NCBI GenBank assembly: GCA_003971905.1
Contig: RSEE01000101.1
Location: 124,001-188,000, forward strand
Length of the DNA: 64,000 nt
From: Moniliella sp. 'wahieum'
Lineage: Eukaryota
Direction: 5' to 3'
The position numbers and the translations under genes are program-made. The notes beneath the pieces are model-generated. The model ran no database searches and was not told the DNA's origin. It was given only the letters and a program-made list of their open reading frames with translations. This document shows, piece by piece, positions 1,833-43,244 of the stretch (position 1 is the stretch's first letter; each line of letters starts with the position of its first letter).

Positions 1833-1952
1833 TGTCACATGCCATGCCTCATGGCTCTGCCTGCGCATTCCTTTCGCTTCTCGCTTCTCCTGTCACATGC
1901 CATGCCTCATGGCTCTGCCTGCGCATTCCTTTCGCTTCTCGCTTCTCCTGTC
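1833..1952. repeat. Perfect 58-bp tandem duplication
   Basis: TGTCACATGCCATGCCTCATGGCTCTGCCTGCGCATTCCTTTCGCTTCTCGCTTCTCC occurs at 1833-1890 and 1891-1948, followed by TGTC. Confidence 0.95.
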
Positions 1953-2319
1953 GTTGGCCCAGGCTCGGCCTGTGGGCACACGACGTGGAAAGGCTGTGGG
2001 CTGCACAAGGACCAAGTCATGGACGCAGTGCCCGTCGAGGAGCGGTGCACGTGTCCCCGCCCGTAGCGTAGCCGCGCCGGCGGTGTATGGCATCCATCAT
2101 CAATCCATTGAGAACGCCACCTCCATCGATCGGTGTCAGTACTCAGTAGTCCTAGTGACGCCCTGTGGGGTTTTGCCAGGCCAGGATGACATCAGCAGCA
2201 CGTGACCAGTGTCCGTCTTCAATTGCAGTCAGCCATGGGCTATTTCATGTTTCCATGGAGTGCCGTGGCCGTTCGTCTTCCTGGACGGCCTCGCGTGTGC
2301 CGCAGCCAGCTCGTCGGCG

Positions 2320-3168
2320 ATGAGCGTCTGCACGCTCCTCCGCCCGCGCGCCGTGCGCATGGGGACGAGCGTCGTGGCGTCCTGGCCGTGTGCACGTGTG
2401 TGTGGCTGTGTGCCGCGCGGCGCAGCAGGTGCGTCCTTCCGCTCGCGCACGCTCCACGCCACGCGGCCTTGCACCAAGCCCAAGCCGCGCGCCGAGCCCA
2501 GCGTGGCCGTGGCCCAGCTGCGCGACCAGGCCTCGCGCCTGTCGCACCAGCAAGGATGGCCGTGGGAGCGTCCGTCCGACCTGGACCAGCGGCATGATTT
2601 CCTCGCGTCGTTGGAGGCGGAGGAATGGGACACGCCGGCGCCGCAGGCGCTGATGACCACCAAGGGCATCCGCGTCGGGTACGTGTACTCCTCCGGTCCT
2701 GGTGGGCAGCACGTCAACAAGACCCGGTCCAAGGCGCAGGTAGTCCTGCCGTTATCCACCGCGTCGCTTTCAGCTGATGCGCGTCGTGCTCTGGAAGACA
2801 CGGCGAGCAGCAACGCTCTCCCCAGTTCCACCTTGGCTCGACTTGTGCGTCCCCCCGCATGGCTGCCCGCGACGGTGGTCAAGGCACTTGTGCTGCGGAG
2901 CGGTGCGCACTACGTTGCGTCGTCTCATAGCATTAACTTTGATGCGCAAGACAGTCGGTCGCAGCATGCGAATTTGCGTGTGGCACTTGCGCGTATCCAG
3001 GCGCATCTGCTCCAGGTGGCCAGGGCAGGCTTGCCGTCGCACACGGACGACGAAAAGTTGGTCAAGGTGCACCGTCTGGCCCAGGCGCACAAGAAGCGTA
3101 CCAAGGAGCAAAAAGTACGCAGGGGCGAGAACAAGGCGGCCAAACGCAGTGCTCGCTCGGCCCTGTGA
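2320..3168 (+). CDS. Mitochondrial peptidyl-tRNA hydrolase, RF-1 domain, ICT1/Pth4/ArfB family
   Basis: SSGPGGQHVNKTRSKA (GGQ motif), AQDSRSQHAN motif, basic C-terminal tail (KKRTKEQKVRRGENKAAKR) and an Arg-rich presequence-like N-terminus. Confidence 0.9.
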   Translation: MSVCTLLRPRAVRMGTSVVASWPCARVCGCVPRGAAGASFRSRTLHATRPCTKPKPRAEPSVAVAQLRDQASRLSHQQGWPWERPSDLDQRHDFLASLEAEEWDTPAPQALMTTKGIRVGYVYSSGPGGQHVNKTRSKAQVVLPLSTASLSADARRALEDTASSNALPSSTLARLVRPPAWLPATVVKALVLRSGAHYVASSHSINFDAQDSRSQHANLRVALARIQAHLLQVARAGLPSHTDDEKLVKVHRLAQAHKKRTKEQKVRRGENKAAKRSARSAL

Positions 3169-3730
3169 GCCTGCTGGCCCGGGTACTATAGCAACTTTCT
3201 TCCCCTCCCCTCCCCCTGTCCCCCCGTCCCTCTTCCCCTCCGTTCTCCCGACCTCCATCCATGCACACGTTCAACCTTCAATCATCTACCCTCCATTGCT
3301 CGTCGCATCTAGCTCCCACATTGATGGCCCTTCCGTCGGCACAAAACCCTATTGTCTGTCCATATCATCTCCGATCATCGAGATCCTCATAAGTATAGTC
3401 TGATCCTCGCCCGAAACAGAGACAAGGTGCCCAACGTTTACCTCTACGGGCATCACATGTCACACGACATCATGGTCATCATGATCATCGTGATCATGAC
3501 CAGGGACGGCTACTCGACAATTTTCCATCTTTTCATGCTTTTTGTCCTTTCTCCCAAGGGGGCAGGAACCGGAACCGACACGGTTCGGGGACGCGTGGAC
3601 ACAGGCACCTCTAGATCCCCGAGGAACCACGAGCCGGACATGCATTTCCTCGGTCCGCCTTGGCGAGGGGGAAGGAGGAGTTGGGGGGAGGGGGTCCCGC
3701 ATCCCTCATCCCGCGTCGCCTCGTTCCGTT

Positions 3731-5845
3731 TCACAAGCTCGTAGCAAACGTAAAGAAAGCATCGACCAACTCTTGCAAGTCCTTGGTGACGCGCGCCACA
3801 GCCTCGTCGTAGCTCTCGCCAGGCAACAGTGGTCGATCTTCTCCGTGTAGATTTTGACCTTGGGTTCGGTTCCCGAGGGACGGATGATGATGCGGGGTGC
3901 GTTGAGTGCGATCTCCTCTTTGGACGCGGTAGTTGAGGCGGGGTAAGTGGCATCGGCAAAGTAGAAGCGCAACACATCGTTTTTGGGAATGGTGGTGCGG
4001 TCGGTAGGATTGCTTGGGTTGTTGAGTAAGTCGGAGATGAGGAGCACAGGGTGGCCACCGACGTTGGTGGGCAGTTCCTTGCGCAGCTTGACCATCAGAT
4101 CCCCGCCTTTACTACCCGGTGCCAAATGAATGGTGCGAGGCAAGGTAATGCTCACGCCAAACGAACGGTGCAAGCTCTCCAGCTGATCCCACAACGTCTT
4201 GCCCTCCGTGTCCAACTTGGCTGCAAACTCTGCCAGAGCCACAATCGCCGACAGACCGTCCTTGTCCCATACCATGGGACTCACCATGTAGCCCAGCGCC
4301 TGTTCCGTGTCAGTACACTTCGGTTGCCATCTAGACAGCAGGGAGAAGGGAGAGAGGAGAGGGGAGTGGAGTGGAGGAGAGGGAAAAGAGGGAAGAGGGA
4401 AGAGGGGAGAGGGGACGTACCTCTTCATACGCAAAAGCAAAATGTTCACCACGATCTTGAATGTCCTTAGCCACCGCACCAAGCCACTTGAATCCCGTCA
4501 AGGTTTCCTGGTACTGGGCGCCCCAGTGCCGAGCGATGCGCGCCAAGAGACGCGAAGAGACGACCGTGTTCAGTGCCCAACTACCTGGGGGCGCGGTGGA
4601 AAGGATATGGTACCCAAGCAACGCACCCACCTGGTCGCCCGTCAACTGTACCATCTTTCCACTCTTCTGGCGTGCACAGCAACTCATCCGATCGGCATCG
4701 GGGTCGTTGGCCGCTGCCAGCTGTGCCCCCTGGGCATCCGCCAGCGCAATCACCAGATCCATCGCACCTTTCTCCTCCGGGTCTGAGGCGGGTCAGAAGC
4801 GTTCACAGTATGCAGCAGGTAAAGGAGGGGTGAGGAGGGTGGACGTACTGGGGAAGTTGACGGTGGGGAAGTCACCATCGGGTTCCCTCTGCTCAGGGAC
4901 CGTATACACATGGGGAAATCCAGCGCGCTGAAAGATGGTCTCGGCAAAGGGGGCGCCAACACCATGCAAGGGTGTGTAGGCAATCTTGAGGGTCTCCTTC
5001 CCTGGTCCCGTGGGGTGGGCGACGGTCTCAAAGAGTTGAGTGAGGTAGGCATCAAACATCTCCTTCGAGAGGTAGTGCAACTTTCCCGCCGCCTTGGCCT
5101 CGTCCAGGGACAGACACTTGGGCGATGGCTCAGTTGCTGCGACGTGCGCAATCGCACCAGCAATCAAGCCATCGACGGGAGCATTGATCTGATTGCCGCC
5201 TTGCCAGTACACTTTGTATCCATTGTACTGCGGCGGGTTGTGGGACGCCGTCACCACCACTCCGGCTGCCGCACCAAGATACTTGACCGCAAACGCGCCG
5301 AGAGGTGTCGGGTGCAACGTGTCGTACAGCAGAGCCTTGACCCCGCGCGCCGCCAAGACACCCGCTGTGTCCTCGGCAACTTTGCAAGGGGAAGGGGGGG
5401 GGGGGGGGGTTAGCGTGCATTCTATGCCACATGGTAAGGGTAGGGGAGACGTACACTCTTTGGACATGTGCCGGCCATCGTATGCGATGACCACTCCCTT
5501 GGCCTGGGCATTGGCCGCATTGGCCTCCAACAGATAATCCGCCAGCCCGGCCGACGTTTGGCGGATGACAAGGCGCTGCAGCAGGAATGCGTGTCCATGT
5601 CAGTTGGCGTTGGAGACAAGGGAAGAGGCAAGAGGTATGAAGAAGAAGGGACGTACGTTCATGTTGGCGGGTCCGACGCCCATAAGGCCACGGAGGCCGG
5701 CGGTGCCAAAGGCCATGCGTTCGCAAAAGCCTTGGTGGAGTGCCTGCTGGTCGCCGGTATCGAGGATGCGTTGGAGCTGAGCCTTGGTGGCGGGGTCAAA
5801 GTCGGCGGCGAGCCAGGCGCGGGCAGAGGCCTCGAGGGACGACAT
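3731..5845 (-). CDS. Phospho-sugar mutase (phosphomannomutase/phosphoglucomutase/phosphopentomutase, PGM2-like family); introns 5576-5656, 5380-5454, 4783-4848, 4300-4420
   Basis: FGTAGLRG, catalytic VTASHNP, metal loop NDPDADR, FAYEEALGY, DKDG and IRPSGTEPK motifs. Four GTACGT...AG introns join the ORF pieces. One frameshift near 3830 precedes [29 protein letters not shown]. Confidence 0.93.
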
Positions 5846-6471
5846 GGGGGGCAGAGACAGGAGGTGGTGGAGGGAGAGAAGCGCGTGGGCGTCCACATGC
5901 TCTAACCGCTTCAGCCGCCGGCTTCAGCCCACCTACCCCATCGGTGCATTGCCAGGCCCCGCCAGGGCACACTCGCAGTTCCGCCCTGGGGCGGAAGGAG
6001 ATGGCGGCCCGACGTGGGGCCCCGCAGTGGGCGATGCTCTCAGTACTCAAGCTTCAAGTACGCGAGAGGGGTTAACGTTTAACCCCCCCTCGGTCAACGT
6101 ACTCAACCGTGCACTCGTCCGCTAGTCAGCAGCCGGCTATCCAGCTACGTAGCGTCCAGCGGCCCATCGCTGCCTGGTCGCAAGAAGTGGGGCTTTTGCG
6201 TTTGAGGCTGTACGAGAATAAATGGAGGCATCATCGACATCACCGTGGCTGAGGAAAAATGATCCATGACTGATTGTATCAGAAAAGTCCATCCATCGAT
6301 CAATCATCCAAGATGATCATCATCATCATCATCGTCTGCCAGCGACCTCCCATCGGAAAGATCTCTGCGATCGCATCGTGGGTTTGTCCCCCTCCCACGC
6401 CGGCCTCATGTGCGCCGCGCCCCCGCCTCGGCCCCAGACCCACTCTCTGCGCCATCACCATCACCATCACC

Positions 6472-8598
6472 ATGCCCACGCCCACGCCCACGCCCACGCC
6501 CACGCCCCCGCTCCCATCCCACCCTCCATCTCGCCACCACGCCCGTTCCGATGCTCCCTCCCTCTCCTCCCTCTCCGACGGCCGGGGAAAGCCTCAGCCA
6601 GCACACCCCCAGCCAGCCCCTCCCCTAATCCCTCCCCTGGCCCCTCCCATGATCCCTCATCCCCTAATTCCTCCCCTCGACCCACAATCACCCCGGACCA
6701 ACACCAACACACGAGCCCCCACTGGCTTCAGCTCGAACCCGAGCAAAGCATCCCAGCGAACAACATGCCCGCTGTCTTTTCGCCTTGATGCTCTGTGTCT
6801 TTGCCGCAGCGCTGGACCAGTCCGTCGTCGCCCCTGCACTCCCCACCATTGCAGCCGAGCTGCACGCCACCGCTGCAGACTATTCGTAGGTTGTCTCCCT
6901 CCCCCTCCCCTGTCCCCTTTGGGTTGGGGAAGCAGCAGGACCGACGCTGACCAGAGTCTGGGTTTGGACAGATGGGTAGCTACCGCCTACATGCTGGCCA
7001 CCACCACCCTCAACCCCATGTACGGCCGACTGAGCGATATGATTGGCCGTAAGCCGATCATGTACGGTGGGGTAATCATCTTTCTGCTTGGTAGCGCCCT
7101 TGCGGCCACAGCCCAAACCATTAGCTGGCTCATCGTTGCCCGTGCGGTCCAAGGTCTTGGAGGGGGCGCCATCTCGAGCCTGTCGCAAATCATCCTGGCA
7201 GACATTACCACGCTCGAAAAGCGCGGCAGTTACTCGGGCTTGATTGGCGCGTGTTGGGGCATCGCGAGTGTCGCCGGACCGTTACTGGGCGGTGCGTTGA
7301 CCACCTGGGCGAGCTGGAGGTGGTGCTTTTACATCAACCTACCAATTTGTGGTATTGCCTTGTTCATGCTCGTATTCTTTCTTCGGCTCAACCCCAAGCC
7401 TGTGATGCCTTGGCGCCAGTTCCTACGCGAATTTGACTTTGCCGGTCTTCTTCTCATCAGTGGTGGCGCGGTTCTGTTCCTCATTGGTTTCTCCACTGCC
7501 GAGACAAACGGATGGAACACGGCCGAGACGATCGCGACCATTGTGGTCGGGGCATGTCTCATGATTGTGTTTGCGTTTTGGAATGCCAAGACCACTCGCC
7601 AGCCCATTGTTGCACGCCGCCTCTTCCACACTCGCACCACCGTTCTCGTCCTACTACAAGTGGTCATGCACGGCATCACCTTTATCAACGTAACATACTA
7701 CCTTCCCAACTTTTACCAAGTTGTCACGGGGGCCGACGCGCTCTTGTCAGGTGTGTACGCACTTCCCTTTTTGATCTGCTCCTCCTTCGTCTCAGCGGTG
7801 GCTGGGTACGCCATCACCAAAGTGCGTGCCTACCGATTTATGCTGGGGATCGGGTTTGGTCTGATGACCGTGGGGTTTGCCCTGATGTGCATTTTGACTT
7901 CCACCACGAGCCGGGCGCTGCAAGAAGTATTTCCAGCGATCCTTGGTCTCGGCGTCGGCTGTTTGTACCAAACACCCATCATTGCCCTTTCCGCTGCGAT
8001 GCCAGTGGCCGAGATTGGTTCGACCTTGGCAACAATTTTTGTGCGGGAATTGTCGACGACGATGGGCATCGCGATTGGCGGTGCGATCCTCAATTCCGAC
8101 TGGGTCCGACGCGCCAAGACGATTGCAGGTTTACCGCCCGATGCGCCGGCGCGTGTGCTGGCCGACGTGCATTACCTTCGCACCTTGTCGCCGCCTTCGC
8201 TGGCCCGCAAGGCCCAGTACGAATATAGCCTAGCAGTTCGGCTCATCTGGATTGTGGATACTCCTCTGGTCGTGGCCGGGCTTGTGTCGTGTGCATGGAT
8301 CAAGGGCTACAGTCTTCGACGGGGTCTTTCCTCCGATCCCAACCCGGCCAAAGAAGGCGCTTTCTCTTCGTCCCAGTGTGACGTGCCATCGTCACACGAA
8401 TGCGACCTCAACCCACCCCAACCCCTTGCTTTGCATGCCTCTACCTCGCCTATGAAGGCCAATTCGTTCCCCAGTCCATCCACCCTCTACACCCCGAAAC
8501 TAGTCTCCTCCTCAACACCACCCCCGTCCGCCAAGTGGGACATGGGACCAACACATGGGCAGTCGGTTCAAGACGCCGGCAAGAGCGAGCCCATGTGA
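6472..8598 (+). CDS. MFS drug:H+ antiporter, DHA2 (14-TMS) family; intron 6886-6971; start uncertain
   Basis: AALDQSVVAPALPTI upstream of the intron, then WVATAYML, YGRLSDMIGRK (motif A), RAVQGLGGG, GPLLGG, WRWCFYINLP and many hydrophobic segments. Confidence 0.92.
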   Translation: MPTPTPTPTPTPPLPSHPPSRHHARSDAPSLSSLSDGRGKPQPAHPQPAPPLIPPLAPPMIPHPLIPPLDPQSPRTNTNTRAPTGFSSNPSKASQRTTCPLSFRLDALCLCRSAGPVRRRPCTPHHCSRAARHRCRLFVGCLPPPPLSPLGWGSSRTDADQSLGLDRWVATAYMLATTTLNPMYGRLSDMIGRKPIMYGGVIIFLLGSALAATAQTISWLIVARAVQGLGGGAISSLSQIILADITTLEKRGSYSGLIGACWGIASVAGPLLGGALTTWASWRWCFYINLPICGIALFMLVFFLRLNPKPVMPWRQFLREFDFAGLLLISGGAVLFLIGFSTAETNGWNTAETIATIVVGACLMIVFAFWNAKTTRQPIVARRLFHTRTTVLVLLQVVMHGITFINVTYYLPNFYQVVTGADALLSGVYALPFLICSSFVSAVAGYAITKVRAYRFMLGIGFGLMTVGFALMCILTSTTSRALQEVFPAILGLGVGCLYQTPIIALSAAMPVAEIGSTLATIFVRELSTTMGIAIGGAILNSDWVRRAKTIAGLPPDAPARVLADVHYLRTLSPPSLARKAQYEYSLAVRLIWIVDTPLVVAGLVSCAWIKGYSLRRGLSSDPNPAKEGAFSSSQCDVPSSHECDLNPPQPLALHASTSPMKANSFPSPSTLYTPKLVSSSTPPPSAKWDMGPTHGQSVQDAGKSEPM

Positions 8599-9096
8599 TC
8601 CTGAATGGTTCCTTCGCCTGCCTAGGAAAACAGTAGGATCAGCTCTGCTTGATCAAACGTCCCTGGCCCAGCTCGCGCCCATGATCCACACTACGACATG
8701 TTGTCGTAAGAGCGTCTCTTCGATGACAAGGCGCCATCCTGCATGGCCGTTTTTCTGTATTTTTGTCGCATGCTCTCTTAATCCTGTACCCCCCCCCTTC
8801 CATGCTACGTCCCCTCGTGCCTTTGTTCCGACGGTGGTGCCAGTGGGTGGACGCTGAATAAAAGGACTGGCAATCCATGTGGTCCTGCATCCCCATGTGC
8901 TCCAGCCATCCATCATCACTCCAAAGCCTGCCTCGTTCCATATGTACATCGAGAGGAGTCGAGGGCTGGGTCACGTGATCGACCACGTGCTTGGCGTAGG
9001 CGGTGCAAGCCGACTAGACGGGCCGTGGCGATAAGCGCCTTGGATGGAAGATCGATCGATGGGCTGCCGAGCGACGTGCGGAAGCGTCCCACCACC

Positions 9097-11345
9097 ATGC
9101 GTGTCCTGCGCTGGCTCGCCGCCGGCCTCGCCTCCGCCATCGCCACTGCCCCTGCCCTTGTTGCCGCTGCGCCCCAGCTTGTTTTCCCCGCTACCGACGA
9201 TGTGCCCGCCGCCGCCCCTTTCCCGCTCGGCCGCACCTCCCGCCCCATCCCTGGTCTGACCGCCTTCCACCGCCAGCGCGCCGCCGCGCTAGCCCTTGGC
9301 GTCGACAGCCTTGCTGTCCACCACACTCGTCTCGCGCCTGAAGGTGACGAGCGTCTGGTGGGAGACGAGATTGAGATAGTGCCGCGGCCGGACCGGGCGA
9401 CGCTACGCAAGCTTTATCCTGCCCAGACCTTTACCCAACTGCTTGACCATGCCGATCCTTCCAACGCCGTGACGTTTGAGCAGCGCTACTGGGTCTCGAC
9501 GAAGCACTACAAGCCTCCGTCGCAGCGTCCGCGCGGATCGAAGACGGTGGTGTATGTGCTAGAGGGGGAGGCGAATGGGGAGGACCGACTGCCCTACTTG
9601 GACCATGGTATTCTCGACATTCTCGCCGCCGAGACAAAGGGGATCTCAATCGTGCTTGAACACCGGTACTACGGCACGAGTTACCCGAACCGTAGTGCCA
9701 TCTCTCCTCCTGGTGATACGTGGGACGGATGCCATGCGTTTCCTCAACAACACCCTTGCCTTGGAGGACAGCGCGCGGTTTGCGCGTCTCCAGCTACCTG
9801 GGATCGAGGAAGACATCACTGCTGGGGCTGGCAAGACGCCCTGGATCAGCTATGGCGGTAGCTACCCTGGCCAGCGTAGTGCCCACTTACGTCTCTTGTA
9901 CCCAGACTTGTTTACCGGTGCGATTGCCAGTTCGGCCGTGGTGGCCGCGGTGACCGATTACCATCCTTACTTTTTCCCCATTGCTCGGGGGGCCAAGCAG
10001 GCGTGTGTGCAATCGCTGCAAGCTGCGATTGAAGGGTTTGATCGCGTCGCGTTACCGGCCAGCAAACTTGAAGGATTGCAGGCCAGCGGTTTGCTCTTGA
10101 TCCCCTGACTGGGCACAACGCCAGCTCGGACCGGGAAGCGTTGCTGCGCATCTTTGGTGTTCCCGGGTTGACGAACCTGGTGGATCTGGCCAATGTGATC
10201 ACTTCGCCTCTGGGGTACTTCCAAGGCCTGAACTGGGACCCGGTCGTCAGCTCGGGTCGGTACTGGGATGGGTTCTGCGCTGCCTTGGCGGCCGACACAC
10301 CATCGTCCCGTTCGCTTGCTCAGGACGGGACTGAGTTCGGGCTGCACCTGCCCAAGGAGACTTACCGCCTTGCCGCTTACACTCGCCACCACTATACCGA
10401 TGAGTGCGTTGCGGCGTTCCAGCAAACAAAACAAGACGACCTAAGGTCCGCGGCAGATCAGTGCTTGGCAACGTCGGTTCCTGCTTCGTTGTACGTACCC
10501 GTACCCCCTTTTTGCTCTCGTTGGGATCGGTGGGATCGTTCAGACCAGTGGGATGGATGTAGGGGTACTAACCCAGACTCGCACGCCCAGCCAAGGTCCA
10601 AGTGACTTGAGTGTATGGTGGTCGTGGGGATGGCAAGTGTGCCAGACGCAGGGGTACTTTATGCCTGCGCCGCCCCTGTCGGATTTTGAGACGGGCCGCA
10701 TCTCGGGTCCGAAACTAGTGTCGTCACTTTTGACGCTGGACTATGTTCGGGATATGTGCTCGGTGTATAAAGCGGGCAAAGTATTTGCCTTCGACGCCCA
10801 ACACGACCGAAGTCAATGCGCTGGGTGGATTCGACTTGGGGTGGACAACTTGGCCATCATCGATGGAGAATGTACGTTGCTCTCTCTTGCTGTGCTAGGG
10901 GAACACTGGCGTAGGCTCTACGGCCCTCGCGCCCTGGTTCGCGCCTTACCGCCCCTCACTCGGGACCGGAAAACGAGACCAAGTTATCTCTACCACTCTC
11001 TTAGCGCCTGATTTGCTGACTCACTGATTTGCTGGTTTGCTGCTTTGCGTTTATGCTTTTTACTTCTTTGCCGAATCCCCTTATTTGCACTTGTGCGTGG
11101 GGCGGTACAGTCGACCCATGGCGCCCAGCCACAGCTCACTCGGACGAATACGCCTTTGGGGGCTGCGCTCCGACACGCTCGATCGACCATTCAAGTTGAT
11201 CCCCTCGTGCTGGCAACTGTGACGAGAACAGTCTCCCCGCGCGTACCGGCACAAGGAACCGGCCCGCATTCGTCAAATCCATGCGGAACAGATTGAATTT
11301 GTCCGGCACTGGCTTACCAAGTCCAAGGCGTCAGCAGCCAACTAA
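9097..11345 (+). CDS. Secreted/vacuolar serine peptidase, family S28; probable introns 10491-10590 and 10872-11110; several frameshifts
   Basis: Signal-peptide-like N-terminus; FTQLLDH, TFEQRYWV, LEHRYYGTS, nucleophile GGSYPG, AIASSAVV, WGWQVC and GE/FDPW motifs; ends IEFVRHWLTKSKASAAN*. Confidence 0.9.
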
Positions 11346-19123: not shown

Positions 19124-21232
19124 ATGGCCTCCTCTGGCATCGACGACATGCATAGCGTCACACCTGCCGACGCCAGTGCCAGCGCCAGCAGCGACCGCAC
19201 CAGTCCTCCCCCTCCGCTCGACGAGCTGCCCACCCAGGGACCTGCCACTCACCTTGCTCCGCCAGCTCTACCTTGGCTCCGACCGCGCCTCGCATACCGT
19301 GTCGGTTGAGCGCGCTGGCAGTCCCTACGACCGGTACGATTCGCACGCACTTCCTTCTTCCCCTACCCACGGCCCAAAGCAAGCCCCAGCCTGGCCCAGA
19401 CCCGGCCCAGGGCCAGAGTCGACGTTCCGGTCCCGCCTCGTCCGAGCCAGATGCGCTGTCCCCCAATCAGTCCCTGCGCTCGCCCGAGAGCGATTCGGTA
19501 GGTGTTGCGAATGGTATGGGGCATTCGGCTTCGCTACGCTCTGGTGGGTCTCATGGGCTGCAGCGTCGTCGTAGCGCCCGCGCGCTCCAGTTTTCTGCCA
19601 CCGGTCGCTCGGTCCTTTCTTCCACTGCGCAAACACCGCCCACACTGGGGCGCACCTGCCGCTACCCCACGCTCGTCGCACCAGCGCGTCCGATCCACCG
19701 AATCGGATCAAGCTGTCCCTGTCGACACGCCCGATCGACTTCGTCTTGTCACCTACTCGCCTGCCCAGCGCGCGCCTTATCTTCCCACCCGCGCGCTCAA
19801 CTTTATCGACAAGAAACGTATCCTAGTCATGGAGGGTAAGTGGGACCGAATCTTCTTTCTACCGTTCTGGATGGGTTGGGTTGGGTTAGATTGGGTGGGC
19901 CACTTTGACTGACGCGTGCATGGGATGGGGTTGTTTGGTGTGACCAGAGCGGGTTGTGGGGAGTCATTTGGTGGACCGTCTGATGCTCATGGGCCACGAG
20001 GTGCTCGTCGTGGACAATTTCTTTACGGGCAACAAGACCAACATTCGTCAGGGTTGGACATCCGAACTTTGAGTTGGTTCGGCACGATGTGGTCAACTCG
20101 CTGTGGTTGAGGTGGACCAAATTTACCATTTGGCCTGTCCAGCCAGTCCCAAGCGTACCAGGTCAATCCGATCAAGACAATCAAAACTAACTTCCAAGGC
20201 ACGCTCAATATGCTGGGGTTGGCCAAACGCACCAAATCGCGTTTCCTCCTCGCCTCCACTCTGAGGTATATGGCGACCCCAGCGTCCCCCAACCCGAATC
20301 GTACATGGCAACGTCAACCAAACCGGACCGAGAGGGTGCTACGACGAGGGAAAGCGGAGTACGTTTTGGTTGGAATGTTGGAATGACCAGCACTCCTTTT
20401 GGCCTCTCCGTTGTTGTTGTTGACTGTGACTGTTCCCGGAGCCTGACGCCCTTCCTCTTCATTTTCTTTTTGCTTTTGTTTCTTGTGTTGTGTTTAGTCG
20501 CAGAGACGTTGACGTATGGGTACTTTTACCAAGATGGGGTGGACGTGCGTGTGGCGCGGATATTCAATACGTATGGCCCGAGGATGCACCCGTACGATGG
20601 ACGTGTGGTATCCAACTTTATTCTGCAAGGTCTCAAGGGGGAACCGTTGACGGTCTATGGCGATGGTCAGCAGACGCGCTCGTTTATGTTCATCCACGAT
20701 TTGGTCGATGGCTTGATTGCACTGATGGAGGCCGAACCTGAACCCGATTCCGACCTGCCCAATGTGGCGGAATACGATCCGACCAGGACGACGAGCCTGA
20801 ACTCGGCGCACGGGCCGGTCAACCTCGGTAACATGGGCGAGTTTACTATCAAGGAATTGGTTCAAGCTGTGGCGGAAGCGATCCACCAAGTTCGTCTTCA
20901 GCAAAGCAACCCACCCCTTACCCCCAAACACCTTATCGCCCAACAACAACAACAGCAACAACAGCAGCCGGATCCTTCCACCTTGGACCCCTCCTCCTCA
21001 CCCGTCTCGTCCCCGCCGCAAGAAGAAGATTCCAGTACAGGTCCTACGCGCGAGTACATCTGTGGGCTGGAGATTGGTATTGTCCTATGCCCACTGACGA
21101 CCCGCAAAAGCGCCGGCCGGACACGACGCGCGCCCAATCTCTTCTGCACTGGCACCTCGCTGGTCCTTGAAACAAGGTCTGGTGGAGATGGTGCACTACT
21201 ACCAACAAAAAATTGATGCGGGCGAACTTTGA
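19124..21232 (+). CDS. UXS1: UDP-glucuronate decarboxylase (UDP-xylose synthase); introns 19836-19947 and 20359-20497; start uncertain; frameshifted
   Basis: KKRILV, SHLVDRLMLMGHEV, VDNFFTG, HLACPASP, LLAST, RVARIFNTYGPRM, DGRVVSNFILQ, GDGQQTRSF, GPVNLGN and DDPQKRRPD pieces recovered across frames. Confidence 0.93.
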
Positions 21233-29816: not shown

Positions 29817-31883
29817 ATGGCCTATCCACAGCACAACCAGCAGCAGCCGTACGGCGCCCAGTACGCCTACCCCGGCCTGCTCGCCTACGGCGCCGGCCAG
29901 GGCTACCCCGCCTACCCCTACACCGCTGCCCAGGGCGGCTTTGCCCAGGCCCAGGCCTACGCCCAGCAGCACGCCGTCTACTCCCAGGCCCAGGCCCATC
30001 TCCAAGCCCAGATCCAGGCTGCTGCCCTCGCTGCCCAGGCCAACGCCCCGCCCTCCCAGCTCCAGCACCCGCTCATGGCCCACGCCGCCAGCTTCTCCAG
30101 CAGCAGCAGCAGCAGCAGCCCCAGCAGCAGCAAGCCTCAGGACAGCCCTCGGCCCAGTCCGCGTCTGCCCCGTCCTCCTCCCCCAGCCTGCCGTTGCGTC
30201 TGCAACCGCCGACCCGTCCGCCGTGTACGGCCTCCCGCCGCGCCCGCCGCGCCAAGGCGCCCTGCGCGTCACCACCTCTTCCAACCGCGCACCCTCTCCG
30301 TCCCCTCGCTCCCCCGGCTTGCCCCGCAGCCCCAAGTCTCCCCGCAGCCCTGCCGCTGCTGCGTCCGCCCCGGCCTCTGCCACCGCTTCCGCCGCGCCCA
30401 CCCTGCCCTCCGACCCCAACGACCCGCAGGCCGACTATGTCTTCTTTGAGCGCCGCCTCGACGGCATCAGCAAGCACACCATCGAAGCCGCGACGGGTGC
30501 CAAGCTCAAGCTCGAGCACTACTACAAGTTGCCGTGGAGCAAGCGATCGAACGTACCGGTCGTCGTGTCGAACTTGAGAAACGTCTGGCCAGTGCCGGAG
30601 CCGAGGTGTCGGATGACAATAAGCGGCGCCAGTTGGCCCAGTTGGGTCAGACTGAATCCAGTTTCCTCCGTTTGCGTCGTACCCGTCTCGGGCTCGATGA
30701 GTTCCGCACGGTCAAGGTGATTGGTAAAGGTGCATTTGGCGAGGTGCGCTTGGTGCAGAAGCCAGACACGGGCAAGATTTATGCGATGAAGTCGTTGCGT
30801 AAGGCAGAGATGTTTAAGAAGGACCAATTGGCCCATGTGCGTGCGGAGCGAGATGTACTGGCCGAGTCCAACTCGCCATGGGTGGTGCAACTGTTTTACT
30901 CGTTCCAAGACGACGTGCACCTTTACCTCGTGATGGAGTTCCTCCCGGGCGGTGATCTGATGACCATGCTGATCAAGTACGACACCTTCTCGGACGATGT
31001 GACCCGCTTCTACATGGGCGAGTGCGCGCTGGCTCTGGAAGCGATCCACAAGCTTGGCTTTATCCACCGCGACATTAAGCCCGACAATATCCTCATTGAC
31101 GCTGGTGGCCACATCAAGCTCAGTGACTTTGGTCTCTCGACTGGTTTCCACAAACAACACGATTCGGCCTACTACCAAAAGTTGTTGGAGCAAGCTCATT
31201 CTGGCACTGCGCAGAACCGTGCCGGTGCAGGCCAATCGGGTAACCGCAACAGTGTCGCCGTCAACTCGATCACCCTCACGCTCAGTTCCAAAGACACGAT
31301 TGCCACCTGGAAGGCGAATCGGCGCAAGCTGGCCTACTCGACCGTCGGCACGCCAGACTACATTGCTCCGGAAATTTTCCTCCAGCAGGGCTATGGCCAC
31401 GAATGCGATTGGTGGTCGTTGGGTGCGATCATGTTTGAATGTCTGTGCGGCTACCCGCCCTTTTGCTCGGAGAATGCGCACGACACCTACCGCAAGATTC
31501 TTGCTTGGCGCGACACGCTCGCCTTCCCCGACGACATTCACCTCTCCCCCGAAGCGGAGGACATGATCCGCAACTTGATCCGCGAGCCAGAACACCGGTT
31601 GGGACGACACGCCGGTGCGGCCGAACTGAAAGCGCACCCCTTTTTTGCTGGTGTCGACTTTGACACGATCCGCGACATTGATGCGCCTTTCATCCCGGCC
31701 CTCAAGAGTGTCACTGACACCTCCTACTTCCCCACTGACGACCTCGCCGAGGTGCCCGATCAATTGCCCACCTCTACCACCCAAGCTACCACCGGCGGCA
31801 CGCGCGGCGGCAAGCCCGGGTCCGACTTGCCGTTCCTTGGCTACACGTTCCGCCGCTTCACTACCAACTCGGGAGCTCTGTGA
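29817..31883 (+). CDS. CBK1: NDR/LATS-family AGC kinase, Cbk1/Orb6/Cot1/Ukc1 ortholog; N-terminal frameshifts
   Basis: [12 protein letters not shown] (Mob-binding region), [40 protein letters not shown] and hydrophobic motif FLGYTF; Q/A/P-rich N-terminus. Confidence 0.96.
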
Positions 31884-38617: not shown

Positions 38618-41600
38618 ATGCCCCCCCGCCGAACCAGAACAGCGTCCAGCGCACCCGCCCCAGCAGCACCGTCCCCCCCCGCCCCCGCTCGCTCCACCCG
38701 GTCCTCGCGCACGCCCATGCCTCGTCAATCCACCCGCTCCTCCCGCACCGCCGCCGCATCCAGTGACGATGACGATGATCGATGATGATGCCGACGGCGA
38801 TGACGACGATCAGACTGTCGTCGACGACGGCGACAGCCAAGACTACTACAACAGTGCCGAGCAGTCTCCATCCACGCGAGTTTCCCCTGCTGCCTCTTCC
38901 CGCGCTCGCGCCAGTCTCTCCCCTACCCATCCGATGCGAGTCAAACACCCAGCCCGGCCTTCTCCGCTCGCCCCAGCTACCCCTAACGGAGATAGGCGTC
39001 GCTCGGTCGTGCCATCCCCCACTGGCACCCCCCGTCTCTCTAATGCCCCCCCACCTCGCTTGCCCCGCCTCGTCCCCTCGCTCCACCCCCACCCGCTGCT
39101 GCCGAGCAAGCCCAAGACGCGCTTCGTGATCCACAAGATGGTCTTGGTCAACTTTAAGAGCTATGCCGGTCGGCAGACCATCGGTCCCTTCCACAAGTCC
39201 TTCAGTGCGTCGTAGGGCCCAACGGCAGTGGCAAGTCAAATGTGATTGACGCGCTTCTGTTTGTGTTTGGCTGGCGGGCAAACAAGATGCGGCAGGGCAA
39301 GCTGTCGGAGCTCATCCACCACTCCTCGGCCCATGAGAACCTGCGCGAATGTTCGGTCGAGGTTTGGTTCCGTGAGATTGAAGACTTGCCCGGGCCCGAC
39401 GCGTACAAGGTCGTGCCCAATTCGCGCTTGGTCGTCGCCCGCACCGCTTTCCGTAACAACACGTCCGTCTAACTGTCAACAATGCCAAGTCTACCTTCAC
39501 CGAGGTCGGCACCTTGCTCCGTGGCCACGGCATTGACTTGGACCACAAACGCTTTCTCATTCTCCAGGGTGAGGTGGAATCCATTGCCCAGATGCCACCC
39601 AAGGGCAAGACGGAGCATGAGGAAGGCTTGCTCGAGTACCTCGAGGACATTATTGGTACCAGTGATTACAAGAAGCCCATCGAAGAGGCTGCGGCCAAGG
39701 TGGACGAAGCCAACGAGCAACGGTCCCTCAAACTGGACCGTCTCAAGTACGTCCAGAAGGAAAACAGGCTCTCGAGGTATGTTCACTTTTCTCGTAGCGT
39801 CGCCGTGTTATCTGTTCGCTCGCTCTGATTCCACCATCGAAACTGACCCTCCCACCCCCCCCCCCCTCCCCCGCCCCTCAGCACAAGAAGGAGGAAGCCG
39901 AAGCTTACCTGCGCGACCAGAACGAGCTTACCCAGCGTCAATCGGCCTTGTGGCAAATCTACATGATGGAATGTCGCCAGCAGATGGAAATCGCCTCGGC
40001 CGCGATTGTCAAGCTGGGGGCCAAGCTGGAAGCCGAGCGCGAACGCTGCTCGGACACGGTCGGAGCCAGCGAGACACTCGCCGCCGAGCTGGAGGAAGCT
40101 ACGCAGTTGCTGAGCAGGCTAAAGTGGAGGCTGACAAGGTGGGCAAAGAGCTTGCGGCGTGTGAGCGTCGCTCGCTCCAAGCCGACGAGGGCCGCAAGCA
40201 TTTGGATTTCAAAGCGCGCAAGCTCGCCAAGCAATTGTCCGAACAACGCAAAGCCTTGTCCCTTGCCCGTCAAACTTCGGATGATTCCGCTGCCACAAGC
40301 GATAAGTTGCGCGGGGAGTTGGCTGGCCTCGAAGCTTCCCTGGTCCAAGAAGAGGCGGAGCTCGATCGAATCCGCGAGTCGCTCAAGGACAAGACCCAGG
40401 TGTTTGCCGCGCAGATCGAAGCCAAGCAACTTGAGCTACAACCTTGGTTGGACAAGATCATTGCCAAGGAGAACGAGCACAAGTTGGCACTGGAGGAAAA
40501 GGCACTGCTGACTAGCCGGGTGGAGCAGGCCCAAGAAGAATTGTCCGTGGCGCAGCAAGAAATCGATGCGATCGATGCCGACACAGAAGCCAAGCAGGAA
40601 GAGCTCCTTTCGCTCGAGCGGGAGCGCGATGAGATGGATGATCGGATTGCCCAGGGGGAGACAGGTGTCTTCGATGCGCAAAGCCGAGGACAAGCTCCGT
40701 TCCTCGGCGGACGTGACACGGGCTAAGGCCGAAGAAGCGCGTGCGGCATCTAGCTCCAACCAATCGCGTTCGACGGTGCTCAATTCGCTCAACCGCCAAG
40801 CGGAGCTCGGACTGATCAAGGGCTACCATGGCCGACTCGGTAGCTTGGGCACCATTGCGCCCGAGTACGATGTTGCCATTTCGACTGCCTGCCCTGGTCT
40901 CGAGTCGATTGTGGTGGACAATGTCGAGGCTGGTCAGGCATGCATCGAGCATCTGCGCCAACACAACCTCGGCCGCGCCAACTTTATCTTGTTGGCCAAC
41001 ATTGCTCAGAATGGCATTCCGTCGGTCCAGACGCCCGAGCAGGCACCCCGCCTCATTGACCTCGTTCGACTTTCGCACCCCAAGTACGCTAATGCATTTT
41101 ACCACCAACTGCGCGATACCTTGGTGGCCAAGGATCTGGCGCATGCCAATCGAATCGCCTATGGTGCCCAGCGGTGGCGCGTCGTGACGCTCGATGGCCA
41201 ATTGATCGAGAAGTCCGGTGCGATGAGTGGTGGCGGCAGTCGCGTGGCGCGCGGCGCCATGTCGGCCACCCCGGTCGGTGCGATTGTCAGTCCGGACAAA
41301 CTGGCACGACTGGAGAAAGAAGCCGAATTGGCCGCGAACGAGTTGCGTTCTCATCGCGCGTCCCTGGCCCATGTGCTGGAATCGCTGGACCGGATGCACA
41401 ATCGCAAACCCATGATCGATGTGGATTTGGATAAGGTACAAATGGCCTTATCCGTGGCCTCGCAACGTCGCAAGGCAGCCGTCGCGCGCCTCGAGGCGAT
41501 GAAACGCGAAATTCTTCCCAGTGCCGAGGAAACCAAACGGATTGCCGAGTTGGACAAGGCCATGGCCAAAATGGAAAGCGACCTGGCCAAATTGCGCGCC

Positions 41601-43047
41601 GGGTCGAGCGGGATCGAAGAGGCCATCACCGAATTGGAACAACAGATTATGAAAGTGGGTGGGATCGAGCTACGTGCCCAAAAGGCCAAAGTAGACGGGA
41701 TCAAAGAGATGATGGAACTCAACAACGAACGTACGGTCAAAGCGGACGTTGCGCGAGACCGCGCCGAGATGGATCATGAGCGCGCGACCAAGACGATTGA
41801 GGAGGTGGAAGCGCAATTGGAGCAACTCCAGGCCGAGTTGGAGCAAGCGGCTCAGACCGTGGCGGAGCGAAAGGCGGAACTGGCCGAGGTGGAGGCGCGG
41901 GCCCAGGCGGCACGGGACGAGGTGGAAGAGTACGAGGCTGGGCGAGAGCAGTTGGCTGAGAAACTCGAAGAGTTTTCGGATGCCGTCAATCGCTTCCGTC
42001 GCCTCGAAGTGGACACGAAGCAAAAAGTGGAAGACAATGAGCGGTCGTTGGCTGACAACCGGAAACGTTTGGCGCATTGGACCGACCGGATTGGCAAGCT
42101 GCAGCTTCATGTCCTCTTGGACGACGGACAAGAAGAAGAGGACGAAGAGCAAGGCGAGGAAGGCAGTACTAAGCTCCAATTGCCAATGTACCCTGTTGAG
42201 GAGGTGCAAGAGTTTGACAAGGAGACGCTCAAGGCGGAGATTGTCATCTTTGAAGAACGCCTGTCCAAGGGATCGGCCAACATGTCGATCATTGAAGAGT
42301 ACCGCAAACGTGAGCAAGACTTTCTCGAGCATGCTCGTTCGCTCGAAGCCACGACGGCCGAGCGCGACGCGGCCAAGCAGTCGTACGAGACGCTGCGCAA
42401 AGAACGTTTCGACAAGTTTATGGCCTCGTTTAGTGTCATCTCGGCCAAACTCAAGGAGATGTACCAAACCATCACGTTGGGTGGCAATGCCGAGCTAGAA
42501 CTCGTCGACTCGCTGGACCCATTCAGTGAAGGCATCATCTTTAGTGTCATGCCGCCCAAAAAGAGCTGGCGTAACATCTCCAACCTCTCGGGGGGCGAGA
42601 AGACGTTAAGTTCCCTAGCGCTCGTCTTTGCCTTGCACGCCTACAAGCCCACGCCACTCTACGTGATGGACGAAATTGATGCGGCGCTGGATTTCCGCAA
42701 CGTCTCCATTGTGGCCAACTTGATCAAGGAGCGAACGCGCGGCGCGCAGTTTGTCATCATTTCCTTGCGCAACAATATGTTTGAATTGGCCGCCCGCTTG
42801 GTCGGCATCTACAAAACCTCGGGCATGACCAAATCTTTGACGATTGAAACAAAGATTTGCATCTGGCCGACGAGGCAGCAGGGACCGAGGACAAGAAACC
42901 GTCCATGGCTCAATATCAACATCAACATCAACATCAACACTCGAGTCCTGTCAAGCAGTTGGATTCTCGTCCGCCCCACCTCGCTCCTCGGCAATTCCTG
43001 CTGCGCGTATGAGCCGCAGAGCCGCACCGCTCACGCCTCGCAGCTAA
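38618..43047 (+). CDS. SMC4: Condensin subunit SMC4/Cut3; intron 39777-39881; frameshifted
   Basis: NFKSYAG...GPFHKSFS, Walker A GPNGSGKSNVID, RFLILQGEVESI, hinge GRLGSLG, signature NLSGGEKTLSSLAL and Walker B YVMDEIDAALD. Confidence 0.97.
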
Positions 43048-43244
43048 CCGCACCCGTTTCCGCATCGTGGGCGGTGTACTGCTTCAAGTGCAAGTGCGCG
43101 GGGGCGGATTTCGTCTTCTCTTTAGCCTCGTCTTTTTGCGGCGTGGCAACCTTTGGATTGAACCGTATGTGTGTGTACTCTTGAGGATTCGAGATTCGAC
43201 CTGACCTAGAGAAGGGTCGAGATAGCGATGCATCGGATGGGACC

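What the first reader, a model, noticed from the sequence alone, without database searches (positions are those of the whole stretch)
3731..5845. Intron-containing phospho-sugar mutase with bacterial (Vibrio-like) signatures: horizontal transfer candidate
Seen: the spliced protein contains [112 protein letters not shown] and a GESYDEA tail, and the gene has four canonical GTACGT introns. From memory of the family, these variants match gammaproteobacterial phospho-sugar mutases of the Vibrio type better than eukaryotic PGM2/Pgm3, which usually read ITASHNPxxDNGY, PDPxFPTV, FAFEEAIGY and DKDGVSA. Inference: a bacterial gene acquired by a fungal ancestor and later intronised. No search was run.
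Basis: partly seen in the sequence, partly recalled or inferred. Interest (0 to 1): 0.75.

Follow-up and report, generated by a model that had tools for sequence, protein, structure and literature searches.

The report
Bacterial-origin phospho-sugar mutase in a fungus
This fungal gene for a sugar-phosphate mutase groups with bacterial enzymes rather than with the yeast and animal versions, so an ancestor of the smut-fungus lineage most likely took it from a bacterium and it later gained introns; this is a solid but ordinary example of a known kind of event.

Summary
The gene is real. It lies on the minus strand (ATG 5845, stop 3731) and has five exons and four GTACGT...AG introns. It encodes a four-domain alpha-D-phosphohexomutase with all catalytic loops intact. 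One correction to the finding: the 'GESYDEA' tail is out of frame with exon 5. A one-base frame break lies between 3837 and 3821.

The closest relatives are proteins of Ustilaginomycotina only (Tilletiaria 67%, others 43-61%). Bacterial phospho-sugar mutases come next (Shewanella, Vibrio, Myxococcota, 44-50%). Yeast PRM15/PGM3 and an insect PGM2 are far behind (33-35%).

In ML trees the Ustilaginomycotina clade (100/100) is nested among Gammaproteobacteria and Myxococcota (95/92 and 99/98). It is separated from the eukaryotic PGM2/PRM15 clade (100/100). An AU test rejects grouping it with the fungal PRM15 clade (p 5e-7). It does not reject grouping it with all eukaryotic PGM2 (p 0.066).

Introns, host-like GC3 and eukaryotic neighbours exclude contamination.

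Verdict: ancient bacterium-to-fungus transfer into the ancestor of Exobasidiomycetes and Ustilaginomycetes, followed by intron gain. The donor is not specifically Vibrio. It is a new member of a known kind, of moderate interest.

The parts
5657..5845 (-). Exon 1 (ATG at 5845-5843; residues 1-63, includes FGTAGLRG)
5576..5656 (-). Intron 1, 81 nt, GTACGTCC...CAG, CTGAC branch-like site; phase 0 after N63
5455..5575 (-). Exon 2 (residues 64-103 plus the first base of F104)
5380..5454 (-). Intron 2, 75 nt, GTACGTCT...AAG, CTAAC branch-like site followed by a 16-base C run; phase 1
4849..5379 (-). Exon 3 (domain I end and domain II start; catalytic T147-A-S149-H-N-P)
4783..4848 (-). Intron 3, 66 nt, GTACGTCC...CAG, CTGAC; phase 1, within codon N281
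4421..4782 (-). Exon 4 (metal loop D307-P-D-A-D-R312, LTGFKW, first half of sugar loop E400-E401)
4300..4420 (-). Intron 4, 121 nt, GTACGTCC...CAG, CTGAC; phase 0 between E401 and A402; holds a degenerate 7-nt repeat
3838..4299 (-). Exon 5 body in frame (ALGY...WDKDG...R541-PSGTEPK548...IYTEK555)
3821..3837 (-). Interval holding a one-base deletion-type frame break (17 nt where homologues have about 6 codons)
3731..3820 (-). Conserved C-terminal helix [29 protein letters not shown] plus stop (TGA 3733-3731), in the shifted frame

Best explanation
The locus is a nuclear gene of a fungus of the Ustilaginomycotina. Its nearest sequenced relative for this gene is Tilletiaria anomala. It encodes a four-domain alpha-D-phosphohexomutase of the bacterial 'phospho-sugar mutase' type, the PGM2-like branch. 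It carries the phosphoserine loop TAS149HNP, the metal loop D307PDADR, the sugar loop E400EALGY and the phosphate loop R541PSGTEPK. By analogy with the superfamily, it should move a phosphate between C1 and C5/C6 of a sugar phosphate through a bisphosphate intermediate. The substrate (glucose, ribose/deoxyribose or mannose phosphate) is not established. The gene most likely entered the common ancestor of Exobasidiomycetes and Ustilaginomycetes once, from a bacterium related to today's Gammaproteobacteria or Myxococcota. It was then inherited vertically, took on host base composition and, in this lineage, gained four spliceosomal introns. In this assembly the last ~29 codons are out of frame through a single-base break. 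This is more likely a sequence or assembly error or a very recent mutation than old decay, because nothing else in the gene is damaged. Shown here: the gene structure, the family, the phylogenetic position and the host context. Inferred: direction and timing of the transfer, substrate, and the nature of the frame break.
For: Family: Pfam PGM_PMM_I-IV hits on the exon translations, and all four catalytic loops located.
Ranking with exon 3 as query: the best 120 of 5388 hits hold 9 rows named as Ustilaginomycotina, and every other organism name is bacterial.
Ranking with the first 345 aa of the Tilletiaria orthologue, restricted to proteins of at least 605 aa: the best 120 hold 15 Ustilaginomycotina rows. 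The only other named eukaryote is a misassembled insect PGM2 at 34% identity.
Local BLASTP of the spliced model: Tilletiaria 67% (818 bits); best non-fungal P0060 47.6% (503 bits); Shewanella 46.8%; Vibrionaceae 47.3%; Myxococcota 48.4%; yeast PRM15 33-35% (278-293 bits); best member of the eukaryote clade 37% (348 bits, rank 266 of 571).
Trees: FastTree with 429 rows, quick ML with 92 rows and careful ML with 44 rows under LG+C20+F+G4. In the careful tree the Ustilaginomycotina clade has 100/100 support and the eukaryote PGM2/PRM15 clade 100/100. The Ustilaginomycotina clade is nested in a 19-row clade with Gammaproteobacteria and Myxococcota (95/92) and a 20-row clade (99/98).
AU test: forcing Ustilaginomycotina together with the fungal PRM15 clade costs 214.7 lnL, p 5e-7.
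Signature columns: at 32 columns that separate bacteria from eukaryotes, the Ustilaginomycotina majority has the bacterial state in 25 and the eukaryotic state in 1. In 4 of 6 diagnostic indel blocks it follows bacteria.
Not contamination: four introns; GC3 0.71 against 0.66-0.77 in six neighbouring genes; neighbours carry SMC-hinge, SWIRM, protein kinase, Lon, TRI12-type MFS and PPR domains; orthologues lie on fungal contigs of 0.39-5 Mb.
Single origin: the topology within the fungal clade roughly follows taxonomy, and all fungal sequences share an ~18-residue insertion in domain IV.
Against: The AU test that holds Ustilaginomycotina together with the whole eukaryote PGM2/PRM15 clade is not significant (delta lnL 23.0, p 0.066). 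A sister position to all other eukaryotic PGM2 is therefore not excluded.
The immediate sister is an unnamed long-branch sequence, P0329 (91/81). Its own best matches are gammaproteobacterial at 45-47%. The next node has only 88/83 support, so the donor lineage is not resolved.
Most rows of the 'eukaryote' clade are unnamed cluster representatives. Only seven yeasts are named. One row (P0239) is insect-like only by its 77% identity to the named Ostrinia protein P0127. The Atlas gives leads for two more. No named basidiomycete PGM2 was in the tree.
Many rows fail the composition test.
The taxon sets for the ML trees were hand-picked from the search results.
Absence of this gene type from other eukaryotes rests on top-120 lists, not on exhaustive searches.
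The frame break means that the gene may not be functional in this strain.
Confidence: 0.85

Rival explanations
1. Ancient eukaryotic paralogue. The Ustilaginomycotina gene is sister to all other eukaryotic PGM2/PRM15 genes and was lost everywhere else, so no transfer into fungi occurred.
For: The AU test does not reject Ustilaginomycotina plus the whole eukaryote clade as one group (p 0.066, delta lnL 23). Both groups sit on long stems (0.48 and 0.76).
Against: The free ML trees nest the clade inside bacteria behind three supported nodes. No other eukaryote with this gene type appeared in the top lists. The scenario needs losses in every other sampled eukaryotic lineage, including the rest of the fungi.
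Confidence: 0.07
2. Vertical fungal PGM2/PRM15 orthologue that only looks bacterial through rate or composition artefacts.
For: Composition heterogeneity is flagged for many rows. Some databases name the Pseudozyma hubeiensis orthologue 'Phosphoribomutase'.
Against: AU rejects fungal monophyly (p 5e-7). Identity to yeast PRM15 is 33-35% against 44-50% to bacteria. Of 32 signature columns, 25 are bacterial and 1 eukaryotic. The site-heterogeneous model gives the same placement.
Confidence: 0.02
3. Bacterial contamination or a chimeric assembly.
For: None beyond the bacterial affinity of the protein.
Against: There are four spliceosomal introns with the fungal GTACGT donor. Base composition matches the host. 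Eukaryotic genes lie on both sides. Orthologues occur in at least 15 named species of Ustilaginomycotina on megabase contigs.
Confidence: 0.01
4. The gene is a decaying pseudogene in this fungus: the frame break is real and old.
For: The C-terminal ~29 residues are out of frame. In frame 1 the protein would end in 44 unrelated residues.
Against: This is the only defect in about 1.7 kb of coding sequence. All splice sites and catalytic loops are intact. The shifted tail is still conserved and stops at the same place as the homologues. Together these point to an error or a very recent change.
Confidence: 0.25

Closest known systems
Bacterial PGM2-like 'phospho-sugar mutase' of Shewanella, Vibrio, Ferrimonas and Myxococcota (no NCBIfam equivalog reaches its cut-off)
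   Same: Four PGM_PMM domains, the same catalytic loops ([42 protein letters not shown]), similar length, 44-50% identity, and nested together in the trees.
   Different: The fungal clade has an ~18-residue insertion and a shorter preceding loop in domain IV. It also has a long stem branch, introns and host composition. The bacterial genes show no conserved operon context in the two loci examined.
Saccharomyces PRM15 (PGM3) phosphoribomutase and animal PGM2
   Same: Same superfamily branch and domain order. PRM15 is the physiological ribose-1-P to ribose-5-P mutase in yeast (Xu et al. 2013, PMC4039369, passages read), which is a plausible activity here too.
   Different: Only 33-35% identity. 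The signature motifs differ (ITASHNPKxDNGY, PDPDFPTV, EEAIGYM, DKDGV). It forms a separate 100/100 clade, and AU rejects joining the two fungal groups.
Other bacterium-to-fungus gene transfers (for example Fitzpatrick et al. 2008, PMC2459174, search listing only; Marcet-Houben and Gabaldon 2010, seen only as a reference and not held)
   Same: A single metabolic gene of bacterial type, fixed in a fungal clade and adapted to the host.
   Different: This case is old (subphylum level) and carries several introns. I found no report of this particular gene. The 2010 survey's gene lists could not be seen.

Membership tests
alpha-D-phosphohexomutase superfamily | Four domains PGM_PMM_I, II, III and IV in order | tested here: met
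   Pfam hits on exons 2-5. Domains I, II and III all score above their gathering cut-offs on exons 3 and 4; exon 2 alone gives a sub-threshold domain I hit (19.1 against 22.5), and domain IV scores 26.5 against a cut-off of 23.1.
alpha-D-phosphohexomutase superfamily | Phosphoserine loop T-A-S-H-N-P | tested here: met
   TASHNP at residues 147-152; invariant in alignment A1.
alpha-D-phosphohexomutase superfamily | Metal-binding loop D-x-D-x-D-R | tested here: met
   DPDADR at 307-312; invariant in A1.
alpha-D-phosphohexomutase superfamily | Sugar-binding loop (E-E-x-x-G-Y) and phosphate-binding loop (R-x-S-G-T-E-P) | tested here: met
   EEALGY at 400-405 and RPSGTEPK at 541-548. The assignment of loop roles is recalled from knowledge of the family.
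alpha-D-phosphohexomutase superfamily | Mutase activity on a sugar phosphate | not testable with these tools
   Needs an enzyme assay.
Eukaryotic PGM2/PRM15 clade (vertical) | Groups with yeast PRM15 and animal PGM2 in a tree | tested here: not met
   Separated by a 100/100 branch. AU p 5e-7 against joining the fungal PRM15 clade. AU p 0.066 for joining the whole eukaryote clade, which is inconclusive at that deeper level.
Eukaryotic PGM2/PRM15 clade (vertical) | Eukaryote-type signature residues | tested here: not met
   1 of 32 diagnostic columns has the eukaryotic state and 25 have the bacterial state.
Bacterium-to-eukaryote horizontal transfer | Recipient clade nested within donor-domain diversity with support | tested here: met
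   95/92 and 99/98 nodes in the careful tree; 99* in the 92-row tree.
Bacterium-to-eukaryote horizontal transfer | Patchy distribution: absent from the recipient's other relatives | tested here: inconclusive
   Only Ustilaginomycotina appear among named eukaryotes in the two top-120 lists. No exhaustive search of other fungi or of Malassezia was possible.
Bacterium-to-eukaryote horizontal transfer | Truly integrated in the eukaryotic genome | tested here: met
   Introns, eukaryotic neighbours and host-like GC3.
Bacterium-to-eukaryote horizontal transfer | Introns not shared with vertical homologues | not testable with these tools
   No eukaryotic genomic DNA other than the window could be fetched.

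The most novel reading that the evidence does not exclude
The Ustilaginomycotina gene is not a recent-style xenologue. It would instead be the sister of the entire eukaryotic PGM2/PRM15 family, a near-ancestral form kept only in this subphylum. That would tie the origin of eukaryotic PGM2 itself to a Gammaproteobacteria/Myxococcota-like bacterial lineage. The AU test leaves this topology open (p 0.066).
Probability: 0.05. Interest if true: 0.6.

Novelty: new member of a known kind. Interest (0 to 1): 0.4.

Why it matters
This is a clean, old bacterium-to-fungus transfer of a core sugar-phosphate enzyme. It is fixed across two classes of plant-associated basidiomycetes and now carries four introns, so it could serve as a dated marker for intron gain. 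It is also a possible case of enzyme addition or replacement in nucleoside and sugar metabolism. A published Pfam table lists 4 PGM_PMM_I proteins in Ustilago maydis, Tilletiaria anomala and Exobasidium vaccinii, against 3 in Cryptococcus neoformans and 2-3 in most Malassezia genomes (6 in five genomes labelled MF) (PMC4634964, supplementary file 12). That hints that the bacterial-type gene was added beside the vertical one, but it does not show it. Hundreds of such transfers are already known, so the wider significance is modest.

Tried and rejected
I anchored the clade with a profile search that named the yeast PRM15 rows, with the named Ostrinia protein and with two Atlas look-ups as leads.
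- AU test on the 92-row set: it did not finish after 864 s, so I dropped it and used the 44-row set instead.
- Strict signature thresholds (at least 85% in both groups) left only 4 residue columns, so I relaxed them.
- PDB sequence search with exon 3: only distant 455-464-aa mutases, best E 3e-10. No structure prediction was run.
The 80 loci kept are mostly Actinomycetota at 37-42% identity, so this is not an unbiased sample of donors. 74 of the 80 gave a usable ORF.
- A short intron to explain the frame break: rejected, because the only GT..AG intervals there are 13-15 nt.
- Bacterial gene neighbourhoods as a clue to function: Vibrio owensii shows cytochrome oxidase and exporter genes. Shewanella shows adenosine deaminase and a pseudouridine synthase. 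There is no shared operon.
- Literature: no report of this transfer was found. The Malassezia HGT text and its interkingdom-HGT sheet contain no 'mutase' (files 13-18 of that paper were not searched). Marcet-Houben and Gabaldon 2010 is not held.
- tRNA scan of the window: none found.
Full report
**Observation**

The finding's interval holds a minus-strand gene.

The exons are 5845-5657, 5575-5455, 5379-4849, 4782-4421 and 4299-3838. The four introns are 81, 75, 66 and 121 nt long. Each starts GTACGT, ends AG and has a CTGAC or CTAAC site near its 3' end. After splicing, the protein is colinear with twelve homologues and shows no gaps at the junctions.

One point is wrong as stated. After ...[15 protein letters not shown] (codon 555, ending at 3838) the in-frame reading continues as [11 protein letters not shown]... 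to a stop at 3706. The conserved tail [29 protein letters not shown] (3820-3731) is in the frame shifted by one base. All homologues align with the shifted tail and stop at the same place. The window therefore has a one-base deletion-type frame break within 3837-3821. The interval is too short for an intron.

**What it is**

Pfam finds PGM_PMM domains I to IV in order on the exon translations. NCBIfam gives only sub-threshold hits to GlmM, Pgm and ManB-type models. The four functional loops of the alpha-D-phosphohexomutase superfamily are present: TAS149HNP, D307PDADR312, E400EALGY and R541PSGTEPK. They are invariant in an alignment of 15 relatives.

The surrounding window is eukaryotic. Its genes carry RF-1, TRI12-type MFS, peptidase S28, protein kinase, SMC-hinge, Lon, SWIRM and PPR domains. 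The gene's GC (0.60) and GC3 (0.71) match six neighbouring genes (GC3 0.66-0.77). No tRNA genes were found.

**Relatives**

With exon 3 as query and longer proteins allowed, 5388 proteins passed E 0.001 among 8000 candidates and the best 120 were listed. Nine rows are named as Ustilaginomycotina: Tilletiaria anomala (66%), Sympodiomycopsis, Parajaminaea, Microstroma, Exobasidium and four Tilletia rows. Every other organism name in the list is bacterial: Myxococcota (58%), Shewanella (about 53%), Ferrimonas, Halioglobus, Labilithrix, Polyangiaceae and Kofleriaceae.

To remove most bacterial proteins by length, I searched with the first 345 residues of the Tilletiaria protein, so that only proteins of at least 605 aa were candidates. 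The best 120 then hold 15 Ustilaginomycotina rows. These now include Ustilaginomycetes: Violaceomyces, Pseudozyma hubeiensis, Melanopsichium, Sporisorium, Kalmanozyma, Pseudozyma flocculosa, Testicularia and Thecaphora, plus Ceraceosorus. They are interleaved with bacterial and metagenomic proteins.

The only other named eukaryote in that list is an Ostrinia furnacalis 'low quality' PGM2. Its score is inflated by repeated exon copies. It is 34% identical and carries the eukaryote-type motifs.

Its best loci were Vibrionaceae, Vibrio owensii and Shewanella (45-46%), Holophagales and Myxococcales (43%), followed by many Actinomycetota (37-42%).

**Obtaining the eukaryotic family for comparison**

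An exhaustive search of 50%-identity cluster representatives with the insect protein gave 150 unnamed proteins.

A profile of eight of them that formed one clade returned Saccharomycotina PRM15/PGM3 'phosphoribomutase' proteins. Four of the eight queries were themselves named this way: Naumovozyma, Candida anglica, Saccharomycodes and Hanseniaspora. Atlas look-ups gave Ascomycota and Basidiomycota clusters for two representatives, as leads only.

The consensus of that clade reads ITASHNPKxDNGYKVY, PDPDFPTV, FAYEEAIGYM and DKDGVxA.

**Numbers**

Local BLASTP of the spliced model, with X at the break, against all 571 fetched relatives gave the following:
- Tilletiaria: 67% identity, 818 bits.
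- Other Ustilaginomycotina: 43-61%.
- Best non-fungal protein (P0060): 47.6%, 503 bits, E 9e-175.
- Shewanella baltica 46.8%, Vibrionaceae 47.3%, Myxococcota 48.4%.
- Yeast PRM15: 33-35%, 278-293 bits.
- Insect-like P0239: 32.8%.
- Best member of the eukaryote clade: 37%, 348 bits, E 3e-114, at rank 266.

By my own arithmetic from those two E-values, the alien-index-like difference of natural logs is about 139.

**Trees**

- FastTree (LG+gamma). It used 429 rows and 576 columns. Proteins under 480 aa and P0127 were left out. The window falls in a clade of 29: 19 named Ustilaginomycotina rows (including the window protein) plus 10 unnamed rows, with support 1.0 and stem length 0.48. That clade lies inside a 117-row clade with Vibrio, Shewanella and Myxococcota (0.98). 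The roughly 95 eukaryote-type representatives sit far away.
- Quick ML. I hand-picked 92 rows and ran LG+C20+F+G4 PMSF on 582 columns. The eukaryote clade of 30 rows is 100*. The Ustilaginomycotina clade of 17 rows is 100* with stem 0.51. It is sister to unnamed P0329 (87), then to a gammaproteobacterial clade (93), all within a 34-row clade with Myxococcota (99*).
- Careful ML. I hand-picked 44 rows, 581 columns, and report ultrafast bootstrap / SH-aLRT. The eukaryote clade is 100/100 and Ustilaginomycotina 100/100. The latter joins P0329 at 91/81 and the Gammaproteobacteria at 88/83. The 19-row clade with Myxococcota has 95/92 and the 20-row clade 99/98.

P0329's own best matches are gammaproteobacterial at 45-47%. 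Within the fungal clade, Ustilaginomycetes are monophyletic and the window pairs with Tilletiaria (100/99). All fungal sequences share an ~18-residue insertion in domain IV. Both points fit a single acquisition followed by vertical descent.

**Topology tests**

Holding Ustilaginomycotina together with the fungal PRM15 clade (four named yeasts plus the two representatives that group with them at 100/99) costs 214.7 log-likelihood units, p-AU 5e-7. This test names the group after seeing the tree for the two unnamed rows.

Holding Ustilaginomycotina together with the entire eukaryote clade costs only 23.0 units, p-AU 0.066. That topology is not rejected. So a vertical origin within fungal PGM2 is excluded, but a position as sister to all eukaryotic PGM2 is not formally excluded. 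That reading would need loss of this gene type in every other eukaryote sampled, so I rate it low.

**Signature characters**

This count used the 44-row alignment. I took columns where at least 60% of the eukaryote rows share one residue and at least 60% of the bacterial rows share another. There are 32 such columns. The Ustilaginomycotina majority has the bacterial residue in 25, the eukaryotic residue in 1 and another residue in 6. At the 70% threshold the counts are 15, 0 and 2 of 17. At 80% they are 5, 0 and 2 of 7.

Of six diagnostic indel blocks, four follow bacteria. Two short ones in a variable loop lean toward the eukaryote state. These characters argue against nesting inside eukaryotic PGM2. 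They do not discriminate against the sister-of-all-eukaryotes reading.

**Mechanism and function**

The enzyme should act as other members of the superfamily do. Phospho-Ser149 donates phosphate to the sugar monophosphate. The bisphosphate intermediate reorients, and the other phosphate returns to the serine. A divalent metal is held by the DPDADR loop. This mechanism is established family knowledge, not something tested here.

The substrate is open. The eukaryotic cousins are phosphopentomutases: yeast Prm15 is the physiological phosphoribomutase (PMC4039369, passages read). Bacterial members are named only generically. The two bacterial neighbourhoods I examined share no operon. The Shewanella locus has an adenosine deaminase gene nearby, which is at best a weak hint of a link to nucleoside catabolism.

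**Frame break**

It is the only lesion in the gene, and the shifted tail is conserved and ends correctly. A sequencing or assembly error or a very recent mutation is therefore more likely than old decay. Reads are needed to decide.

**Comparison and novelty**

The gene works like, and belongs to, the bacterial PGM2-like phospho-sugar mutases. It is not a member of the vertical eukaryotic PGM2/PRM15 clade.

Four full-text searches found no report of this transfer. The Malassezia comparative paper's HGT text and its HGT sheet do not list a mutase (six small supplementary files were not searched). The 2010 survey of prokaryotic genes in fungi is not held, and its lists may include the Ustilago orthologue.

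The same Malassezia paper's Pfam table gives 4 PGM_PMM_I proteins for Ustilago maydis, Tilletiaria anomala and Exobasidium vaccinii. It gives 3 for Cryptococcus neoformans and 2-3 for most Malassezia genomes (five genomes labelled MF have 6). This is a lead that the bacterial-type gene is an extra copy and may be missing in Malassezia. Coprinopsis and Puccinia also have 4, however, so the count is not decisive.

**Left unchecked**

- Whether a PRM15-type paralogue exists in this genome or in other Ustilaginomycotina.
- Whether this gene type is present or absent in Malassezia and in other fungi.
- Intron positions in the orthologues.
- The organisms behind the unnamed representatives.
- Metagenome and viral contig collections, which were closed.

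**Verdict**

The horizontal-transfer interpretation is well supported. The donor is a bacterium near Gammaproteobacteria and Myxococcota rather than Vibrio specifically. The case is a new member of a well-known kind, and interest is moderate.

Noticed in passing
window 3821-3837 (minus strand): A single-base frame break separates the body of exon 5 from the conserved C-terminal helix. In frame 1 the ORF runs on for 44 unrelated residues to a stop at 3706.
   Followed up: partly
window 5394-5409: A 16-base C homopolymer (minus strand) lies inside intron 2, just after the CTAAC branch-like site. Its length may be unreliable in the assembly.
   Followed up: no
window 4341-4415: A degenerate 7-nt repeat (GGGAGAG on the plus strand, about 10.6 copies) fills most of intron 4.
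   Followed up: no
window 1833-1952: A perfect 58-bp tandem duplication (2.1 copies, 100% match) lies upstream of the RF-1 domain ORF.
   Followed up: no
window 2206-3165, 6274-8595, 8782-9858, 20191-21213, 30450-31880, 40512-43181, 44182-45561, 49722-50663, 62516-63568: Neighbouring ORFs carry RF-1, MFS/TRI12, peptidase S28, NAD-epimerase, protein kinase, SMC hinge plus SMC_N, Lon protease, SWIRM and PPR domains. This is an ordinary fungal nuclear gene set, and none looked bacterial.
   Followed up: partly
P0018 (Exobasidium rhododendri, 942 aa): This orthologue carries a C-terminal GST_C_6 domain after the mutase. It may be a real fusion or a merged gene model.
   Followed up: no
P0127 (Ostrinia furnacalis, 969 aa): This insect PGM2 model contains eight matches to domain II and repeated copies of the same ~55-residue segment. 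It looks like a misassembled or mispredicted gene, which inflated its rank.
   Followed up: yes
P0016, P0086, P0184-P0189, P0195-P0229 (about 609-672 aa): This is a tight clade of unnamed proteins, some labelled 'phosphoglucomutase' by JGI. It sits on a very long stem (1.18) among bacterial sequences, and its origin is unknown.
   Followed up: no
P0130 (975 aa, unnamed): This protein joins RlmN_N and radical-SAM domains to a full phospho-sugar mutase. It may be a fusion or a read-through of adjacent bacterial genes.
   Followed up: no
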